Below, piece after piece: positions 598-22,875 of a DNA stretch of 43,178 bases; positions within the stretch are counted from its first letter, which is position 1; each line of letters starts with the position of its first letter. Source of the DNA: Planctomycetota bacterium (GTDB lineage: Bacteria; Planctomycetota; SZUA-567; H5-PLA8); assembly GCA_038227875.1 (NCBI GenBank), contig JBBRPR010000067.1, forward strand, positions 1 through 43,178, in the 5' to 3' direction. The notes beneath the pieces were generated by a model, which saw only the letters and a list, made by a program, of their open reading frames with translations, did not search any database and was not told the origin of the DNA. The translations under genes and the position numbers were made by a program.

Positions 598-2175
598 ATG
601 TCTCATCGGAAAGTTTCGTTGGTAGCTTTGTGCGTGGTGATGGCCATTGCCAACCGTGCACAGGTGAAAGCTGCTACGACAGTCGAAGATCTGCGCGCTG
701 AAGTTGAAGATTTACGAAAGCGTGTCACAGCAAAGCAGGCCTCGACTCCCATCAGTGAGGTGGATAACTGCACCTGCAGTAAATTTGGCCCCAACGCTCC
801 GGTGACCACGCGCAACGGCAAGCTGGAAATCGGTGGGCTGCTGCAGATCTGGGACGTCACCTATTACAACCGCGACAAGCAGGACATCTTCGGCGACCGC
901 GGCCCGAATGCCGGTTCTGGCGGCACCAATGAAACGCAGGATAACGGCGGCTACTCGATTCGCCGCGCTGAATTGCGCTTCAAGATGGACATCCACGAAA
1001 ACATCACCTCCGTCGTCACCATCGACCCGGCTCGCGAAATCACCAGCGTGCCCAGCTATCCCAGCAATCAGGGACAGTTCAAGTCGGTGCGCACGAACCC
1101 GTCGATCGCTCACGGCACGTCCGTCGCCCTGACCCCGGTCGGCCGCGTGCAGTCCGGCGCCGGCACCTCCAACCGCATGCTCGAAGATGCCTACATTAAT
1201 TATCACGGCGTGCTGCCGCACCACGACGTCACCATCGGCCAGTTCAAGCCGGCGATGGGCGAAGAAGGCGTGCGCAACAGCGCGTACCTCGATTTCGCCG
1301 AACGCGCGATGGTCACGCAGCTCAACGATGTCCGCGACATTGGTATCCAGGCACACGGTACCTGGGTCGATGACCGCCTGCAGTACTGGGTCGGCGCCTT
1401 CAACGGCACCGGGAACTACTTCGGCACCGCCGGTCCCGACGGCACGCTGGTCGCCCGCCCCAACGGCGCTCAGAACCGCGCTGACGACAACGACAATAAG
1501 GATGTGCTGGTCAGTCTGCTCGGCCGCCCCTTCTGGAACTGGGGCTGCATCGGCAGCATGGAAATCGGCGTGTCCGGCGAAGCTGGCCTGCACGGCGAAG
1601 CCGGTGGCGTCGATTCGCTCAACTCCCCGGTCAACGGCCTCAATCGCCGCCGCACCTGGGCCAGCCGCGAAGCGGCGTGGGTCTACTACAAGCCCCTCGG
1701 CGTCGTCCGCGGCTTGTGGGTCCGCGGCGAAGTCGGCTCCCAGCAGGACCGCACGGTTCCGCTCTCGGTGGACGCCTTCGATCTCGGCGGCGGCCCCAAT
1801 GGCGAACAGGTTTCACCCCATCCGTTCCGTCGCTACGGCGGCTATGGCGCGGTCGGTTACAAGCTGACCGACAGCGTCTTCGCCGAACGCCTCAGCCACG
1901 GTGGCTTCTTCAATAACCTGCTGGAGCCGGTCGAATTCGTCTTCCGCTATGAACAGTTCGGCAACATCATCACCGAAAGCCTGCGCAGCCCCGACACGCA
2001 GACGGATGTCAACGACACGAAGGTCGTGACGATGGGCGTCAACTACTACGTGAAGGCCTACAATTCGCGCGTGCAGATGAACTATTCGGTGGTCGATGAA
2101 CCGTCGAGCCACGTGCGCGGCTTCCACGAAGTCCAGAACAACGTCTTCATCTTCACCTACCAGATCATGTTCTAA
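598..2175 (+). CDS. Outer-membrane porin, phosphate-selective porin O/P (OprO/OprP)-like
   Basis: Likely start MSHRK after G-rich SD; signal peptide, coiled coil, motifs IRRAELRF, LEDAYINY, IGQFKPAMGEE, FAERAMV, RDIGIQAHG, GVNYY; C-terminal Phe. Confidence 0.75.
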   Translation: MSHRKVSLVALCVVMAIANRAQVKAATTVEDLRAEVEDLRKRVTAKQASTPISEVDNCTCSKFGPNAPVTTRNGKLEIGGLLQIWDVTYYNRDKQDIFGDRGPNAGSGGTNETQDNGGYSIRRAELRFKMDIHENITSVVTIDPAREITSVPSYPSNQGQFKSVRTNPSIAHGTSVALTPVGRVQSGAGTSNRMLEDAYINYHGVLPHHDVTIGQFKPAMGEEGVRNSAYLDFAERAMVTQLNDVRDIGIQAHGTWVDDRLQYWVGAFNGTGNYFGTAGPDGTLVARPNGAQNRADDNDNKDVLVSLLGRPFWNWGCIGSMEIGVSGEAGLHGEAGGVDSLNSPVNGLNRRRTWASREAAWVYYKPLGVVRGLWVRGEVGSQQDRTVPLSVDAFDLGGGPNGEQVSPHPFRRYGGYGAVGYKLTDSVFAERLSHGGFFNNLLEPVEFVFRYEQFGNIITESLRSPDTQTDVNDTKVVTMGVNYYVKAYNSRVQMNYSVVDEPSSHVRGFHEVQNNVFIFTYQIMF

Positions 2176-20087: not shown

Positions 20088-20271
20088 ATGGCATACCTTG
20101 AAGTGCTTCGTCGCATGCTATTTGGGATTATTGATCGGGTCCAGAGTGTAACCAAGGACTCCTGTTCGAATCTCTGGAGCCCCAAGTGTGGAGAGTTTTG
20201 CGGGGGCGGCGCACCGCGAAGCGAGTTCGCGATGCGCAGCGAAATTTAAAATTGAGTTGAAAGCACCAGAG

Positions 20272-20655
20272 CTAGTGAAGCATCTGCTTTTCTTCTGAAC
20301 AAATGGCCGCTGGCCGCCACAACTTCAACTTTCGAAACACCCGCGCGTCCGCGCTCGGATGCACGGCCAGAGCGGTCATCGCGTGCTGCAGGTCCGGCTC
20401 GATGAAAAATTCGCTGGCGACGCCACGAGCGGTAAGCTCGCGGTGCCAACGTCTCAATTCCGGTTCGTTTTCGACGCCGAGGACGACCAGCGTTTTATGC
20501 TCGGCGGCCCAGTTGCGGACCTATGGGTCCGCGCCGTGCTTGAGCATGAATTCGGCCAGCGCGTGGGCGGTCTGGACGACCGCCTGCGCTGGGGTGAGGT
20601 CCTGGCGCGTCAGGATGTAGAGCCTGCGCGCGTTCGTCTCATCACGATTGCCCAT
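20272..20655 (-). CDS. PTH2-like (PTRHD1/phage-type) peptidyl-tRNA hydrolase interrupted by one in-frame amber TAG (codon 45, 20523-20521); recoded gene or pseudogene
   Basis: MGNRDETNARRLYILTRQDLTPAQAVVQTAHALAEFMLKHGADP*VRNWAAEHKTLVVLGVENEPELRRWHRELTARGVASEFFIEPDLQHAMTALAVHPSADARVFRKLKLW...; both halves in the same frame with PTH2-like motifs; SD GGGAGG. Confidence 0.8.
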
Positions 20656-21166
20656 GTTGCGCCTCCCGTCTGGCGGCGGTAAAGCGTTCGGCTTCCGCGA
20701 AACGTTCCGGGTCGGCCGCCAGTTCAATCAACGTGGACGAGAGCGACGCCAGCGCGCTGAAGATCAACGCAGAAGCCTTTGCGCGCGAGACGTGATGCGC
20801 AAACTTGCCAGCGCGGACGGCTTTCCGGACGTCCTTCTTCAGCGGCAGTGCGCCGTTGCCAAACTTCAGCAGATGAAGCGCCGTGAGCCAGCGCGACGCC
20901 TCCTCGCGGGCGGCGAGATACTCCGGCCAGCTGGGATGGGGCGGCGAGATGCAGGCGGTGACTTTTTCGTAGGCTTCCCAACGCTGCGTCCATCCGGCGT
21001 CGAGATCGAAGGCGCATTTGCGGCGGCACCTGAACACCGCGCCGTCGGGCGAAACGTAGACCCATTTCTGAGCCGTCTCGGATTTGAACGCGTCGGACTT
21101 CAACCGGCGAATCCGTTCGGAAACCTGAGCGACGTGGAACTGCAAGACCTGTGTAATCGTGACCAT
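20642..21166 (-). CDS. Hypothetical 174-aa protein overlapping the start of the PTH2-like gene
   Basis: Start MVTITQVL after SD GAGGAG; ends in TGA; 14-bp overlap with the downstream gene. Confidence 0.75.
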   Translation of the reverse strand: MVTITQVLQFHVAQVSERIRRLKSDAFKSETAQKWVYVSPDGAVFRCRRKCAFDLDAGWTQRWEAYEKVTACISPPHPSWPEYLAAREEASRWLTALHLLKFGNGALPLKKDVRKAVRAGKFAHHVSRAKASALIFSALASLSSTLIELAADPERFAEAERFTAARREAQHGQS

Positions 21167-21174
21167 GTGTAAAA

Positions 21175-21233
21175 CTCCTCGCAAAAAGGTTGGTTGTGAA
21201 ACTGCACGCGAACGTGGGAACCAGCCTGCGAGG
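21175..21233 (-). promoter_or_regulatory. SD-sequestering hairpin upstream of the 174-aa gene
   Basis: CCUCGCA pairs with UGCGAGG (covers GAGG of SD GAGGAG), UGGUU/AACCA, apical CACG-UUCG-CGUG. Confidence 0.7.
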
Positions 21234-21260
21234 TCACGGCGGACGGAAGACCTAGAGCAT
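21234..21260 (-). CDS. uORF2 / minigene ATG-CTC-TAG (ML*; readthrough product ML-X-VFRPP ending at TGA)
   Basis: Strong SD AAAGGAG 5 nt before ATG at 21260; TAG 21254-21252; next stop TGA 21236-21234 directly abuts the SD-sequestering hairpin. Confidence 0.6.
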
Positions 21261-21311
21261 GGCGTCTCCTTTCGGATGGCTTGGAATGTGTAAGTGAGAA
21301 TGGATGCGCGC

Positions 21312-21348
21312 AAAAACAAAAAGGCCAACGGGAACGCCGCTGACCTTT
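21312..21348 (-). terminator. Intrinsic terminator/attenuator inside the leader
   Basis: AAAGGTCAGCGG-CGTTC-CCGTTGGCCTTT followed by TTGTTTTT. Confidence 0.8.
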
Positions 21349-21383
21349 AGTTTATGAGGTGTGGAAGGGGTGTGGAAAGAGAT

Positions 21384-21401
21384 CTAGAGAAAACCGCGCA
21401 T
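21384..21401 (-). CDS. uORF1 leader peptide MRGFL* ending in TAG
   Basis: SD AAAGGA 6 nt before ATG CGC GGT TTT CTC TAG; the frame stays open past the TAG through the terminator and is in frame with uORF2. Confidence 0.55.
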   Translation of the reverse strand: MRGFL

Positions 21402-21435
21402 CGTTAGTCCTTTGAGTTGCCTGCTTATGCACTTA

Positions 21436-21464
21436 CCTATACCTCGCGAAAAGCAGGAAGTCAA
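21436..21464 (-). promoter_or_regulatory. Candidate sigma-70 promoter for the leader, immediately 3' of the CUA tRNA
   Basis: TTGACT-N17-TATAGG on the minus strand. Confidence 0.5.
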
Positions 21465-21468
21465 ATTT

Positions 21469-21544
21469 TGGTGGCCCCGGCGGGAGTCTCACCCGCAACC
21501 GCAAGCTTTAGAGGCGAGCTGCTCTGGAATTGAGCTACGGGACC
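21469..21544 (-). tRNA. Atypical tRNA with CUA anticodon (amber suppressor / tRNA-Pyl-like)
   Basis: GGTCCCG TA GCTC AATTCCA GAGC A GCTCGC CTCTAAA GCTTGC GGTT GCGGG TGAGACT CCCGC CGGGGCC ACCA: 76 nt, paired acceptor, D and T stems, encoded CCA, loop CU-CUA-AA. Anticodon stem has two pyrimidine mismatches, D-loop lacks GG, T-loop lacks TTC. Confidence 0.85.
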
Positions 21545-21548
21545 GCGT

Positions 21549-21583
21549 TGGGGTTAGTGAACCCCATGAGAGGAGGTTGTCAA
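21549..21583 (-). promoter_or_regulatory. Promoter of the CUA tRNA with operator-like palindrome over the -10 region
   Basis: TTGACA at 21583-21578; TGGGGTT-CACT-AACCCCA inverted repeat at 21566-21549; -10 match is weak. Confidence 0.6.
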
Positions 21584-21624
21584 GGGTGACGTGATCGCGA
21601 CATTCGACTCATCGCGACTCGCCG

Positions 21625-22875
21625 TCATTCCTTGAACAGCGCCAGCACGCGCTGCTTTGCCCACTCGGTGCCGAGATAGCCGAGGTGGCCGCCGCGGGGC
21701 AGCACGGTCAGGCGACCGGGGGGCGCGTCGCGTTGAACGTACTTCAATAATATGGGATCGTTGAGCGGATCGTCGGCCGTCAACACCACGTGGACATTGT
21801 CGCCGGTTTGCGGGAGCAGTTTGCCCAGGTCGCCGAACGACCAGAGATCCTCGAGCGAACTGACGCGCTTCTTGTCCTCCCAGTACGGAAAGACCACCTG
21901 CTCGATGAACCGCGAAAACGCGTAGCGGTGCTTGTCGCCGCCGTTGCCGTCCGAGGGCAGATCGGGGAGTTCGTACTTGTAGACGTTCTTTGACGTATTG
22001 ATCGCGTCGGTCAAATCGTCGTGAAAAACGTATCCGATGCCGGCGCGCATCAGCGAATCGGTGAACGGAATCGCCTTCTCCGGGCTGACGGGTTCGTGGC
22101 CCTTCATCTTCCACAGGTCGAGCAGGCCGAACTTGGAGCGGTCTTCGTCGTACATCTTATCCAGCAGTGTCGCGGAGACGTGCATGCTGACCGGCGGCGA
22201 AAAGACGAGGACGCGGTCGGGCTTCAGCGTGATCTTGTTGGTCTTTGCCAGGCGCGCAAAGTTCAGCGCAAGGATGCCGCCGTAACTGGCGCCGAGCAGG
22301 CCGAGCTTCGTGACTTTGCCTTCCAACAGCGAGTGCTGTTCGAACGAGTTGATCACATTGGCCGCGGAGATCGCTTCCATCTCCAGGTTGCCGGCGACGC
22401 CGTGGTTGGAACTTTTGTTGAACGACGAGCGGAAGATGGAGTCGAAGGTCATCACGTGGCAGCCGGCTTCGTAAAGCTGCGCTTCCCACAGCCGCGCGAG
22501 CGGATCCTTGCTCTTGGAGGCCAGCCCGAGAAAGATCACGACCAGCGGAGCCGGATGGTCCTGCAGCATCGCGCGGACTTCCAGGTCCTTCTTGAAACCG
22601 TAGACCTTCAGCTTGAGTTTCTGCTCGCCCTTCAGATCCGGAGTTTTGAAGCTGGTCATCGCCGTCAACGTGGCATAAAGCCCGTTGTTGCATGAAAAGG
22701 TGTAGGGCACCGTCGGGATCGCCGCATCGAGCACGGCATTCGCCGCTTGAACGACGGCAGCGGACCCGGGTGCTGGGGCGGGCGCCGTGGAATTCAACGC
22801 CACCGGCCCGGCTTCTTCAGCCGCAGCGAGCATGAAAATGGAGCAGAGGAACAGCGCAACGCCGAGTCGTTTCAT
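21625..22875 (-). CDS. Secreted alpha/beta-fold hydrolase
   Basis: Start MKRLGVAL after SD AAAGGA; signal peptide; LLGASYGG nucleophile elbow, ADDPLN, RGGHLGY. Confidence 0.85.
   Translation of the reverse strand: MKRLGVALFLCSIFMLAAAEEAGPVALNSTAPAPAPGSAAVVQAANAVLDAAIPTVPYTFSCNNGLYATLTAMTSFKTPDLKGEQKLKLKVYGFKKDLEVRAMLQDHPAPLVVIFLGLASKSKDPLARLWEAQLYEAGCHVMTFDSIFRSSFNKSSNHGVAGNLEMEAISAANVINSFEQHSLLEGKVTKLGLLGASYGGILALNFARLAKTNKITLKPDRVLVFSPPVSMHVSATLLDKMYDEDRSKFGLLDLWKMKGHEPVSPEKAIPFTDSLMRAGIGYVFHDDLTDAINTSKNVYKYELPDLPSDGNGGDKHRYAFSRFIEQVVFPYWEDKKRVSSLEDLWSFGDLGKLLPQTGDNVHVVLTADDPLNDPILLKYVQRDAPPGRLTVLPRGGHLGYLGTEWAKQRVLALFKE

What the first reader, a model, noticed from the sequence alone, without database searches (positions are those of the whole stretch)
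20272..21583. Candidate self-contained amber-suppression-gated operon: CUA tRNA, two amber uORFs, hypothetical gene, PTH2-like gene with internal amber
Seen in sequence, all on the minus strand within 1.3 kb: a tRNA with CUA anticodon (21544-21469); SD-led uORF1 MRGFL-TAG before an intrinsic terminator; SD-led uORF2 ML-TAG before an SD-sequestering hairpin; a 174-aa gene; and a PTH2-like gene with one in-frame TAG. The three ambers share a similar context (CTC TAG ATC, CTC TAG GTC, CCA TAG GTC). Ordinary genes in this window still end in TAG (4016, 18786, 23092, 25720, 40917), so this is not genome-wide recoding. Inference: UAG readthrough would be needed at three levels (antitermination, translation initiation, full-length protein). 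That would form a switch turned on by the suppressor tRNA or by RF1 failure, and its output would be a translation-rescue enzyme. I do not recognise this as a described system.
Basis: partly seen in the sequence, partly recalled or inferred. Interest (0 to 1): 0.95.

Follow-up and report, generated by a model that had tools for sequence, protein, structure and literature searches.

The report
Amber-readthrough-gated tRNA and hydrolase cassette
A small, self-contained bacterial gene cassette carries its own tRNA that reads the stop codon UAG, and its two protein genes seem to be made only when UAG is read through at several checkpoints in a row; this looks like a built-in sensor of stop-codon decoding that I could not find described.

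Summary
All the elements sit on the minus strand at the stated coordinates: tRNA(CUA), two SD-led amber mini-ORFs, an intrinsic terminator, a 174-aa gene (p174) and a PTH2-fold gene with one in-frame TAG.

I collected 20 homologous loci from soil and sediment metagenomes and from MAGs of at least two phyla.
- The in-frame TAG sits at the same codon in 17 of 20.
- A co-oriented CUA tRNA is present in 17 of 20.
- An SD-led ATG-Leu-TAG minigene is present in 16 of 17 readable leaders. The genome background is 1 per 138 kb.
- In 13 loci, reading through the minigene's TAG adds 5-9 codons ending [R/K/H]-[P/A/S]-P-stop, never TAG. The RNA starting at that stop pairs with the p174 ribosome-binding site.
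- In 3 loci the ML-TAG is in frame with p174 itself.

Flanking genes differ everywhere. RF1 is present. TAG ends 25% of long frames, so the genome is not recoded. There is no PylS.

Best reading: a UAG-readthrough-gated operon that reports suppressor-versus-RF1 activity and feeds back on it through a tRNA-ester hydrolase. The gating rests on comparative evidence only. The trigger and the enzyme's target are inferred. Nine literature searches found no description of it.

The parts
21469..21544 (-). tRNA with anticodon CUA (amber suppressor type). Anticodon loop CUCUAAA, encoded CCA, discriminator A. The D-loop lacks GG and the T-loop is TGAGACT.
   Evidence: ARAGORN. Rfam RF00005 at 40.5 bits. 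Homologous CUA tRNAs in 17 of 20 loci. In the 16-sequence alignment the anticodon loop is invariant, and 10 of 15 predicted pairs show compensatory changes.
21436..21464 (-). Putative leader promoter: TTGACT, 17 nt, TATAGG, lying between the tRNA and uORF1.
   Evidence: Read. Similar TTGNNN-17/18-TATNNN sites precede uORF1 in 6 of 13 loci. The strict sigma-70 scan of the tool found none here. This is an inference.
21384..21401 (-). uORF1: SD-led M-R-G-F-L-TAG.
   Evidence: M-x(1-4)-F-[L/T]-TAG occurs in 11 loci and MT-TAG in 2 more. An independent-study contig keeps its ATG and TAG, with four changes just downstream of the TAG.
21310..21348 (-). Intrinsic terminator: 12-pair hairpin plus T-run, between uORF1 and uORF2. 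It lies inside the frame that opens when the uORF1 TAG is read through.
   Evidence: Scan tool. My scan gives dG -15.7. The readthrough frame is open for 41 of 41 codons up to uORF2.
21234..21260 (-). uORF2 minigene ATG-CTC-TAG with a strong SD. Its readthrough extension is V-F-R-P-P-TGA.
   Evidence: It is the only such element in the 9.3-Mb genome.
21177..21233 (-). Anti-RBS hairpin. The 5' arm CCUCGCAGG starts at the base after the extension's TGA. It pairs with UGCGAGG, which holds the SD of p174.
   Evidence: Fold (not better than shuffles). Comparative support: own-locus pairing -16.8 vs cross-locus -10.8 kcal/mol, 0 of 20,000 permutations as good. The best partner of the RBS starts within -8 to +7 nt of the extension stop in 12 of 13 loci.
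20642..21166 (-). p174: a 174-aa basic protein of no known family. It overlaps the next gene by 14 nt.
   Evidence: No Pfam, PADLOC or useful NCBIfam match. 65 cluster representatives in 1.84 billion proteins. AF2 pLDDT 93.7. No PDB fold match. Family pI median 9.9.
20272..20655 (-). PTH2-fold gene with an in-frame TAG at codon 45 (20521-20523). Its terminal stop is also TAG.
   Evidence: PF01981 E 2.2e-8 across the TAG. PDB profile hit to archaeal Pth2. A model of the TAG-less homologue matches Pth2 structures at TM 0.72-0.75. The TAG is conserved in 17 of 20 loci, and the 66 codons after it are under purifying selection.

Best explanation
This is a conserved, horizontally scattered cassette of about 1.3 kb. 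Its two protein genes are expressed only when the stop codon UAG is decoded as sense.

Supported by comparison of loci: the cassette always couples three things. They are a class-I tRNA with anticodon CUA, a leader with amber-terminated mini-ORFs, and a Pth2-fold gene that usually carries an in-frame UAG.

Inferred mechanism in this window:
1. A ribosome that terminates at the UAG of uORF1 lets the downstream terminator form. A ribosome that reads through follows the polymerase across it.
2. A ribosome that terminates at the UAG of the two-codon minigene ML-UAG leaves a hairpin that hides the p174 ribosome-binding site. A ribosome that reads through translates five more codons and pauses on R-P-P-UGA. 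That pause sits on the 5' arm of the hairpin and frees the site.
3. The Pth2-like reading frame needs a third readthrough after Asp-Pro.

Output therefore rises steeply with the ratio of charged tRNA(CUA) to RF1 activity.

Inferred function: the basic protein p174 and the Pth2-fold hydrolase act on tRNA-linked esters that build up when UAG is not terminated. The target is either the suppressor's own aminoacyl-tRNA or peptidyl-tRNAs from UAG-stalled ribosomes. Either way the operon counteracts what induces it. In logic this is a feedback controller of amber decoding like prfB autoregulation. I put about 0.8 on the gating and about 0.5 on the feedback function.
For: Conservation of the internal TAG:
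- Same codon in 17 of 20 loci. Exceptions are L003 (Ala) and the distant L014 and L034.
- In the 16 loci measured, the context is D-[P/L]-TAG-[V/L/I] and there is no further stop in the next 66 codons. Mean amino-acid identity there is 46%, and 57% of identical-residue columns use different codons.

tRNA:
- A co-oriented CUA tRNA in 17 of 20 loci. 16 are ARAGORN calls; L004 is added from the alignment.
- 15 of the 17 pass the Rfam tRNA gathering score.

Leader:
- SD+ATG-Leu-TAG in 16 of 17 readable leaders, using four different Leu codons. L007 has MKEP-TAG instead.
- The extension ends R/K/H (11/1/1), then P/A/S (11/1/1), then P (13 of 13). The stop is TGA in 9, TAA in 4 and TAG in 0.
- Anti-RBS pairing is positioned at that stop.
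- In L008, L010 and L013 the ML-TAG is in frame with p174.
- L034 has no internal TAG but keeps the ML-TAG leader (ML-TAG-ARPPP..., whose TGA overlaps the main ATG) and a CUA tRNA 13 nt after the gene.
- The uORF1 readthrough frame is open up to uORF2 in 10 of 13 loci, against 5 of 26 for the other frames.

Genome background:
- TAG is a normal stop (25% of frames of 350 codons or more).
- RF1 scores best in all 5 carriers searched, above the curated cut-off in 4 of 5.
- No second such leader in the genome.
- Pth2 fold.

Literature context:
- RAPP-like C-terminal motifs of small uORF peptides are known arrest motifs (PMC10951233, abstract; PMC12992588, passages).
- Short minigenes sequester tRNA as peptidyl-tRNA, which ties them to Pth (PMC2490762, abstract).
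Against: - Nothing was measured. There is no evidence that the tRNA is charged, that UAG is read through, that R-P-P-stop pauses ribosomes, or that the protein hydrolyses anything.
- This window's own hairpin folds no better than shuffles.
- A terminator was found by my scan in only 7 of 11 loci, and three of those are weak.
- The tRNA lies upstream of the gates in 10 loci and downstream in 7, with no promoter-like site in the 130 nt before it in 7 of 7. In those 7 loci induction would also raise the suppressor. That is positive feedback, which fits a pure negative-feedback governor poorly.
- The Gly-Lys stretch of canonical Pth2 aligns to a gap and a Gln in this family. I recall that Lys as catalytically important but did not check it. 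The protein may bind rather than cleave.
- NCBIfam Pth2 equivalog scores are far below cut-off (24.7 vs 126).
- In L008, L010 and L013, internal starts after the TAG cannot be excluded. A GTG ORF is listed in L010.
- Related loci are not independent, so the permutation figures overstate significance.
Confidence: 0.55

Rival explanations
1. RF1-failure alarm with a commitment switch rather than a homeostat. When RF1 is inhibited or depleted, UAG readthrough opens the gates. In the loci where the tRNA lies behind the gates, this also amplifies the suppressor. The suppressor pushes stalled ribosomes on to the next UAA or UGA, and the Pth2-like enzyme recycles dropped-off peptidyl-tRNA. It differs in placing the trigger outside the cassette and in having no feedback on the suppressor.
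For: - The tRNA is downstream of pth with gaps of 5-83 nt and no promoter-like site in 7 of 7 such loci.
- Extension stops are always TGA or TAA, which RF2 can read (13 of 13).
- RF1 is present in the carriers.
- Pth2 fold.
- Link between minigenes and Pth (PMC2490762, abstract).
- RF1-less E. coli resolves UAG by near-cognate suppression and rescue systems (PMC6207430, abstract).
Against: - No natural RF1-specific stress is known to me for these organisms.
- A harmless rescue enzyme would not need three serial gates.
- In 10 loci the tRNA is made ahead of the gates.
- The cassette is rare: 1 of 401, 5 of 301 and 3 of 401 genomes in three samples. That is odd for a general rescue function.
Confidence: 0.2
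2. Anti-phage sensor. The serial UAG gates detect a foreign suppressor tRNA or RF1 inhibition brought by stop-codon-recoded (TAG-to-Gln) phages. The output either deacylates CUA tRNAs to block phage late genes or is toxic and aborts infection.
For: - Tight multi-level gating fits a dangerous or specialised effector.
- The distribution is sporadic and looks horizontally transferred, with unrelated flanks.
- TAG-recoded phages with their own suppressor tRNAs exist (10.1101/2021.08.26.457843, abstract).
- One locus (L007) lies next to an SMC/AAA_21-type ATPase gene.
Against: - It does not explain why the cassette always carries its own CUA tRNA.
- No PADLOC model matches either protein.
- The neighbours are mostly housekeeping or unrelated genes, not defence islands.
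- No relative was found in 2.9 million viral contigs.
- Recoded phages of these soil and sediment hosts are not documented in what I searched.
Confidence: 0.15
3. Site-specific insertion of a special amino acid. The tRNA(CUA) would serve a pyrrolysine-like local code expansion that the Pth2-like enzyme needs at codon 45.
For: - ARAGORN labels the tRNA 'Pyl', by anticodon alone.
- The three group-A tRNAs lack the usual GG and T-loop consensus.
- p174 has no known function.
Against: - No PylS above cut-off in 0 of 5 carrier genomes.
- TAG-less homologues have Ala (4) or Gln (1) at that position.
- In the model the position sits at a loop or helix cap.
- The same UAG is used in two-codon minigenes, where no chemistry is needed.
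Confidence: 0.03
4. Decay or chance: a nonsense-mutated pseudogene next to a degenerate tRNA, with chance mini-ORFs.
For: - The window's tRNA scores low (40.5 bits) and has two mismatches in the anticodon stem.
- TAG differs from CAG (Gln in P0002) by one base.
- The single-sequence hairpin is not significant.
Against: - The same TAG is present in 17 of 20 loci at 45-68% protein identity, with purifying selection after it.
- The minigene is found in 16 of 17 leaders against a background of 1 per 138 kb.
- The source run's contigs show no differences from the window.
Confidence: 0.01

Closest known systems
prfB (RF2) autoregulation by an in-frame UGA and +1 frameshift
   Same: An in-frame stop codon inside a translation-factor-related gene makes expression depend on how poorly that stop is terminated. 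This gives a feedback loop on stop-codon decoding (PMC12421855, abstract).
   Different: Here the bypass is readthrough by a dedicated tRNA encoded in the same cassette, not a frameshift. There are up to three gates in series, including leader ORFs. The product has the Pth2 fold and is not a release factor. Whether it promotes termination is unknown.
Leader-peptide attenuation and arrest-peptide control (trp/pyrBI-type terminators, recalled; ermC/cat-type RBS hairpins, recalled; RAPP-type arrest peptides ApdA/ApdP/SecM)
   Same: The position of a ribosome on a short upstream ORF decides whether a terminator or an RBS-sequestering hairpin forms. The extension ends in an R-[P/A/S]-P motif like the RAPP, RGPP and RAGP arrest cores (PMC10951233, abstract; PMC12992588, passages; PMC7897499, search listing).
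   Different: The sensed event is decoding of a stop codon as sense, not supply of a charged tRNA, a drug or secretion. The arrest-like motif is reached only after readthrough and is followed by a stop codon in place of the last Pro. The peptide is only 8-14 residues long. Arrest was not tested.
TAG-recoded phages with suppressor tRNA(CUA) (code 15)
   Same: An own CUA tRNA together with in-frame TAG in protein genes. Stop-codon reading is used as a gate on expression (10.1101/2021.08.26.457843, abstract; earlier scan notes).
   Different: This is a chromosomal three-gene cassette in bacteria that use TAG as a normal stop (25% of long frames) and keep RF1. There is one recoded codon per cassette plus the leader ambers. 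No relative was found in viral contigs.
Peptidyl-tRNA hydrolase 2 (Pth2, PF01981)
   Same: Pfam match above the gathering score and a Pth2 fold (TM 0.72-0.75 to 2zv3, 1xty, 3erj, 1wn2, 1q7s). The R-x-D-L, Q-x-x-H-A and T-A-L-A-V-x-P blocks are conserved.
   Different: It is far below the NCBIfam equivalog cut-offs. The Gly-Lys stretch is missing and replaced by Gln, and E-P-D stands in place of D-A-G. It is bacterial, always paired with a CUA tRNA, and usually interrupted by UAG.
Phage lambda bar minigenes and Pth (recalled), and toxic minigenes
   Same: SD-led two-codon ORFs are the classic producers of dropped-off peptidyl-tRNA, the substrate of Pth (PMC2490762, abstract). Here a two-codon ORF sits in front of a Pth2-like gene.
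   Different: The minigene here always ends in UAG, always encodes Met-Leu, and is built into an attenuator. No drop-off was shown.
Allo-tRNA nonsense and missense suppressors of Acidobacteria (Mukai et al., PMC5389517)
   Same: Natural tRNAs in soil Acidobacteria that may act as nonsense suppressors, some of them next to toxin-antitoxin genes (abstract and passages read).
   Different: Allo-tRNAs have 8/4 or 9/3 acceptor branches and long variable arms, and their natural stop-codon anticodon reads UAA. The tRNAs here are ordinary 7/5 class-I tRNAs with a natural CUA anticodon. That paper does not contain the term 'peptidyl-tRNA hydrolase' (listing).
Engineered amber-suppression gene switches
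   Same: Synthetic circuits place UAG in a gene so that expression depends on a suppressor tRNA (PMC6412442, abstract).
   Different: Those are man-made and depend on an unnatural amino acid. This one is natural, self-contained and multi-layered.

Membership tests
tRNA (Rfam RF00005) | Covariance-model score at or above the gathering score (29 bits) | tested here: met
   Window 40.5 bits. 15 of 17 cassette tRNAs pass. L004 and L008 do not.
tRNA (Rfam RF00005) | Cloverleaf helices kept by compensatory changes | tested here: met
   10 of 15 predicted pairs have changes on both sides in 16 sequences; all 7 acceptor pairs are kept.
tRNA (canonical elbow) | G18-G19 in the D-loop and T-Psi-C-type T-loop (recalled consensus) | tested here: not met
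   The window, L002 and L003 have D-loop AAT/CTCCA and T-loop TGAGANT. The other 13 aligned tRNAs have GG (or GA in L009 and L011) and TTCGAAT-like loops.
Amber suppressor tRNA | Anticodon CUA in a 7-nt loop | tested here: met
   The loop CTCTAAA is invariant in 16 of 16 aligned tRNAs. L034 has CTCTAAC.
Amber suppressor tRNA | Is aminoacylated and inserts an amino acid at UAG | not testable with these tools
   Indirect only: purifying selection on the 66 codons after the TAG. Amino-acid identity is unknown. The nearest own-genome tRNA is Trp(CCA), with 55 identical positions. The tRNA-Gln genes adjacent in L009 and L011 are not close copies.
Pth2 (PF01981) | Pfam HMM at or above the gathering score (23 bits) | tested here: met
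   34.8 bits, E 2.2e-8, residues 12-106 of 128, across the TAG.
Pth2 (PF01981) | Pth2 fold | tested here: met
   Model of the TAG-less homologue P0004 (pLDDT 74.9). All 12 Foldseek PDB hits at E <= 0.001 are Pth2 entries, with TM 0.63-0.75 among the ten shown.
Pth2 (NCBIfam equivalogs NF003314, TIGR00283) | Score above the curated equivalog cut-off | tested here: not met
   24.7 vs 126 bits and 18.9 vs 82 bits.
Pth2 (active enzyme) | Gly-Lys stretch before the Q-x-x-H-A helix, and D-A-G-x-T (catalytic role recalled, not checked in a paper) | tested here: not met
   In the profile alignment to 2zv3 the 'kg' falls in a gap of the family and the following Lys aligns with Gln. E-P-D aligns with D-A-G.
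Pyrrolysine system | PylS in the genome | tested here: not met
   TIGR02367 above cut-off in 0 of 5 carrier genomes. G000 is 88% complete.
Genome-wide TAG reassignment (code 15-like) | TAG not used as a stop; RF1 lost | tested here: not met
   TAG ends 1332 of 5321 (25%) frames of 350 codons or more, and the frames after TAG are no longer than after TAA or TGA. prfA-like hits in 5 of 5 carriers: G000 scores 372 bits, below the 423 cut-off, and the other four score above 520.
Intrinsic-terminator attenuator | GC-rich hairpin plus T-run between the leader ORF and the genes | tested here: met
   Window 21348-21320 plus T-run. Across loci, 7 of 11 by my scan, 4 of them strong.
RAPP-type arrest peptide | C-terminal R-A/G-P-P (or RAGP, RAPG) core at the arrest point | tested here: inconclusive
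   The extensions end R/K/H, then P/A/S, then P, then a stop. L005 has R-A-P-stop. The exact RAPP or RGPP motif is absent. Arrest cannot be tested here.
Known anti-phage defence systems (PADLOC-DB) | HMM match of a component | tested here: not met
   0 families at E <= 1 for both proteins.

The most novel reading that the evidence does not exclude
A natural, portable controller of genetic-code ambiguity. The cassette consists of an amber suppressor tRNA, a cascade of UAG checkpoints (a transcription attenuator, an arrest-peptide translational attenuator reached only after readthrough, and an in-frame UAG), and a Pth2-fold hydrolase with a novel basic partner that acts back on the suppressor or on UAG-stalled translation. 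Stop-codon readthrough itself would be the regulatory signal. That would be a sensing principle not known from bacterial attenuators, and the first closed-loop regulator of a stop codon's meaning outside release-factor genes.
Probability: 0.4. Interest if true: 0.95.

Novelty: categorically new. Interest (0 to 1): 0.9.

Why it matters
If the gating works as the sequences imply, bacteria have evolved a compact device that measures how a stop codon is being read and acts on the result.
- It would add stop-codon readthrough to the short list of signals sensed by leader peptides.
- It would be a second, independent example of prfB-like logic.
- It would show a natural amber suppressor living in genomes where a quarter of genes end in UAG, which bears on how codon reassignment can start.
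- It would supply ready-made parts: diverse natural CUA tRNAs with the CUCUAAA loop, very short readthrough-dependent attenuators, and a possibly suppressor-specific hydrolase. These could serve genetic-code expansion and tightly gated expression.
- It would give functions to test for a new protein family (p174) and for a bacterial Pth2 branch.

Tried and rejected
- Complex prediction of p174 with the Pth2-like protein (alignments A5 + A6): no verdict, score 0.00. This says nothing either way.
- p174 fold: no Foldseek PDB hit at E <= 0.001. The best VIA-align Z was 6.2 among helical noise. The ESM Atlas gave no usable hit.
- Viral contigs: no relative of the Pth2-like protein. The p174 alignment had no stretch conserved enough to scan with.
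- Empty-site comparison: the best orthologue of the flanking alpha/beta hydrolase (G002, 64% identity) shares no other neighbour, so the cassette's borders could not be defined.
- Flanking repeats: only short chance-size matches.
- Strict sigma-70 scan: no promoter in 20150-21700.
- Single-sequence fold of the window's anti-RBS hairpin: z -0.22. The fold of the tRNA alone: z -1.39.
- Reads. All four runs were Logan contigs, not raw reads. The probable source run covers the stretch with no differences. A second-study run covers uORF1 but stops one base short of the internal TAG. One contig from an RNA library covers 267 nt of p174 at about 98% identity, which does not show transcription.
- tRNA origin. 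The nearest own-genome tRNA is Trp(CCA), but the discriminator differs. The CUA tRNAs of L009 and L011 are not copies of the adjacent tRNA-Gln genes.
- L034's N-terminal 95 residues as a p174 remnant: hhalign probability 0.2%.
- Same-family genomes: 0 of 16 have the Pth2-like gene.
- A regulon of other ML-TAG...P-stop leaders in the genome: none found.
- Earlier findings of this scan: none on this module, by words, sequence or place.


Full report
**What is in the window.** All features lie on the minus strand between 21544 and 20272.
- tRNA: ARAGORN finds a 76-nt tRNA with anticodon CTA at 21469-21544. Rfam's tRNA model scores it 40.5 bits against a gathering score of 29, with two pyrimidine-pyrimidine mismatches in the anticodon stem. 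It is the only CUA tRNA among the 81 tRNAs ARAGORN finds in the 9.3-Mb, 176-contig genome that holds the window.
- Putative promoter: directly after its encoded CCA comes TTGACT-17-TATAGG, which I read as a promoter. The tool's strict scan does not call it.
- uORF1: an SD-led ATG CGC GGT TTT CTC TAG at 21401-21384.
- Terminator: a 12-pair hairpin with a T-run at 21348-21310.
- uORF2: an SD-led ATG CTC TAG at 21260-21252.
- p174: a 174-aa ORF at 21166-20642.
- PTH2-like ORF: it overlaps p174 by 14 nt and runs 20655-20272. Its single Pfam PF01981 match (E 2.2e-8) runs across an in-frame TAG at codon 45.

**Related loci.** A search of 5.8 billion proteins found only four near-full-length relatives of the Pth2-like protein. 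They have Gln (one) or Ala (three) where the window has TAG. Gene callers split TAG-containing copies, so I searched DNA instead.
- Pattern scans confirmed by tblastn gave 13 metagenome loci (L002-L014).
- They gave two genome loci, L015 and L016. The record titles are a Pyrinomonadaceae MAG and a Blastocatellia MAG.
- Whole-genome searches added L020, L021 and L022 and a distant L034.

With the window that makes 20 loci. The cassette is rare and patchy:
- 0 of the 16 other genomes of the window's family.
- 1 of 401 in a sample of its phylum, and that one is the window's genome.
- 5 of 301 in a sample of the class of G409.
- 3 of 401 in a sample of that phylum.
- None in viral contigs.

The flanking genes differ in every long locus. 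They include lipase, methyltransferase, carbonic anhydrase, Usp, kinases, GroES and an SMC-like ATPase, with no integrase among the Pfam matches. The unit that is conserved and moves is the cassette itself.

**The in-frame TAG is selected, not decay.**
- It sits at the same codon in 17 of 20 loci. The exceptions are L003 (Ala) and the distant L014 and L034.
- In the 16 loci long enough to measure, the context is Asp-Pro (14) or Asp-Leu (2) before the TAG and Val, Leu or Ile after it.
- None has another stop in the next 66 codons. Those codons keep 46% mean pairwise identity, while 57% of identical-residue columns use different codons.
- The most conserved block of the family (T-A-L-A-V-H-P) lies after the TAG.
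- In the model of the TAG-less homologue the position is at the loop before helix 2. Relatives tolerate Ala or Gln there, so the codon looks regulatory rather than chemical.
- Terminal stops of the gene are TAA (7), TGA (5) and TAG (2; the window and L007), counted in the 14 TAG-bearing loci listed.

**The tRNA is a constant partner.**
- ARAGORN calls a CUA tRNA in 16 loci. L004's, miscalled by ARAGORN, has the same loop in the alignment. That gives 17 of 20.
- Two of the other three are contigs that end too early (L010, L013). The third is the distant L014.
- Every tRNA is on the strand of the genes.
- In the 16-sequence alignment the anticodon loop CTCTAAA is invariant, while the acceptor stems differ and covary. 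Ten of 15 predicted pairs have compensatory changes.
- 15 of 17 pass Rfam's tRNA gathering score, at 39.8-68.9 bits.
- The window, L002 and L003 form a subgroup without the D-loop GG and with T-loop TGAGANT. They share the two anticodon-stem mismatches, and these features are conserved although their acceptor stems differ.
- The tRNA lies before the leader in 10 loci. In five of these uORF1 starts 15-35 nt after the tRNA with no promoter-like site between them.
- It lies 5-83 nt after the Pth2-like stop in 7 loci, with no promoter-like site in the preceding 130 nt in 7 of 7.
- PylS is not found in five carriers.
- The amino acid carried is unknown.

**The leader is the most telling part.**
- Minigene: a script looking for SD + ATG-NNN-TAG finds exactly one in the leader of 16 of 17 loci that have leader sequence. 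The middle codon is always Leu, through four different codons (CTC, CTG, TTG, TTA). In the window's whole genome the pattern occurs 135 times in 18.7 Mb of two-strand sequence. L007 has MKEP-TAG instead.
- Extension: in 13 loci, reading through that TAG adds 5-9 codons. The last three residues are R/K/H (11/1/1), P/A/S (11/1/1) and P (13 of 13). They are followed by TGA (9) or TAA (4), never TAG.
- Pairing strength: the 25 nt that begin at the last sense codon of the extension pair with the p174 ribosome-binding site (-20 to +6). The mean is -16.8 kcal/mol for a locus's own pair and -10.8 for cross-locus pairs. None of 20,000 permutations reaches the observed mean.
- Pairing position: I slid an 18-nt window over 104-148 positions per locus. 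The best partner of the RBS starts within -8 to +7 nt of the extension's stop in 12 of 13 loci; L003 is the exception.
- Caveat: the window's own hairpin is not more stable than shuffles (z -0.22). This evidence is comparative, and related loci are not independent.
- Geometry: it fits a classical translational attenuator. A ribosome releasing at UAG ends short of the 5' arm. One paused with R-P-P in the P site and the stop in the A site covers it. (Footprint size is recalled, not computed.)
- Literature: RAPP-like C-terminal cores of small uORF peptides are established arrest motifs (PMC10951233, abstract; PMC12992588, passages). L005 literally has R-A-P followed by a stop.

There are two variant designs.
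- In L008, L010 and L013 the ATG-TTG-TAG is in frame with p174, so p174 itself begins M-L-UAG. L010's ORF is a p174 member at hhalign E 1.8e-31.
- In the distant L034 there is no internal TAG and no detectable p174. The leader is still SD-ATG-CTC-TAG-A-R-P-P-P..., ending in a TGA that overlaps the main ATG, and a CUA tRNA follows 13 nt after the gene.

The core is therefore the Pth2 fold, the CUA tRNA and the ML-UAG leader.

**The first gate.**
- uORF1 ends F-L-TAG or F-T-TAG in 11 loci and is MT-TAG in two.
- The frame after its TAG stays open all the way to uORF2 in 10 of 13 loci. The other two frames do so in 5 of 26 cases.
- It runs through the terminator where one is found.
- My scan found a hairpin plus T-run in 7 of 11 loci. 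Four are strong (the window, L002, L004, L013) and three are weak. This level is real in the window but not universal.
- In 6 of 13 loci uORF1 readthrough runs in frame into the ML-TAG of uORF2.
- A contig from an independent study keeps the uORF1 ATG and TAG, with four changes just downstream of the TAG.

**The proteins.**
- The Pth2-like protein aligns to archaeal Pth2 structures (2zv3, E 4.7e-6). A model of the TAG-less homologue (pLDDT 74.9) matches Pth2 entries at TM 0.63-0.75, and all 12 hits at E <= 0.001 are Pth2 entries.
- It keeps several family blocks. But the Gly-Lys stretch aligns to a gap and a conserved Gln, and E-P-D replaces D-A-G. It is far below the NCBIfam equivalog cut-offs. 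Hydrolase activity is therefore plausible, not assured.
- A review notes that Pth2 is mainly archaeal and eukaryotic, with some bacterial acquisitions (PMC4929431, passages).
- p174 has 65 cluster representatives in 1.84 billion proteins and no Pfam, PADLOC or useful NCBIfam match. The model is confident (pLDDT 93.7: a long helix, a beta-hairpin and a helical bundle). It has no convincing structural neighbour and a basic pI (median 9.9 over 25 members). That is compatible with RNA binding but does not show it.

**Genome background.**
- TAG ends 25% of stop-to-stop frames of 350 codons or more. The frames after TAG are no longer than after TAA or TGA.
- RF1 homologues are present in all five carriers searched.
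- No other ML-TAG...P-stop leader exists in the genome.

A strong constitutive suppressor would be costly here, which gives a reason for tight control.

**How it most likely works.**
- Supported by conservation alone: expression of p174 and the Pth2-like protein is made conditional on decoding UAG as sense, at one to three checkpoints.
- Inferred: each checkpoint is a race between the cassette's tRNA(CUA) and RF1. Output is then a steep function of their ratio.
- Inferred further: the products act on tRNA esters that arise when UAG is not terminated, so the loop is corrective, as in prfB.
- Arguments for this: the Pth2 fold; the constant pairing with the CUA tRNA even where the gene has no TAG; and the known link between two-codon minigenes and peptidyl-tRNA (PMC2490762, abstract).
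- Argument against a pure governor: the 7 loci where the tRNA sits behind the gates. That arrangement gives positive feedback and fits an externally triggered alarm (RF1 failure or a foreign suppressor) better.
- I cannot choose the trigger from sequence.

**Novelty.** Nine full-text searches found recoded phages, prfB, arrest peptides, allo-tRNAs and engineered switches, but nothing like this cassette.
- The search terms combined suppressor tRNA, Pth/Pth2, amber, leader peptide, attenuation, RF1, defence, Acidobacteria, allo-tRNA, minigene and arrest peptide.
- The nearest precedent for natural nonsense suppressors in Acidobacteria concerns structurally different allo-tRNAs (PMC5389517, abstract and passages).
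- This scan's earlier notes hold phage cases of a CUA tRNA beside in-frame TAGs, but nothing matching this sequence or place.
- Subscription-only papers are outside the library, so absence from print is not proven.

Noticed in passing
L007:5385-5461 (+): A second tRNA-like gene sits just after the Pth2-like gene. Its D arm is identical to that of the locus's CUA tRNA. Its anticodon arm is replaced by a GC-rich hairpin capped by TTCG, so it has no anticodon. ARAGORN calls it 'tRNA-???'; Rfam tRNA scores it 56.9 bits.
   Followed up: no
window 21469-21544; L002:4052-4127; L003:189-264: These three CUA tRNAs share a non-canonical D-loop (no GG), a T-loop TGAGANT and two pyrimidine-pyrimidine mismatches in the anticodon stem. 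The features are conserved although the acceptor stems differ. They look like a deliberately altered elbow, not decay.
   Followed up: partly
L010:1836-2153 (+): An extra 105-aa ORF of unknown kind lies between the Pth2-like gene and the place where the tRNA should begin. The contig ends there.
   Followed up: no
L034 (G730:C13), 1365-2130 (-): A distant variant. The Pth2-like domain carries a 95-residue N-terminal extension unlike p174 and has no internal TAG. The ML-TAG-ARPPP leader ends in a TGA that overlaps the main ATG. A CUA tRNA lies 13 nt downstream.
   Followed up: partly
L009:676-751 and 1023-1097 (-); L011:2198-2274 (-): In two loci the cassette abuts tRNA-Gln(CTG/TTG) genes on the other strand. 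The CUA tRNA is not a close copy of them.
   Followed up: yes
G007:C134:40940-42130 and G006:C88:10353-11600: Two paralogues of the flanking alpha/beta hydrolase, in same-family genomes, each show one in-frame TAG. Those genomes have no Pth2-like hit.
   Followed up: no
window 20272-20274: The Pth2-like gene of the window (and of L007) also ends in TAG. Under suppression a 48-codon C-terminal extension would be made. The other 12 TAG-bearing loci listed end in TAA or TGA.
   Followed up: partly
genome contigs C13:840-935 and C47:42458-42548: ARAGORN calls two tRNA-SeC(TCA) genes in the same genome.
   Followed up: no
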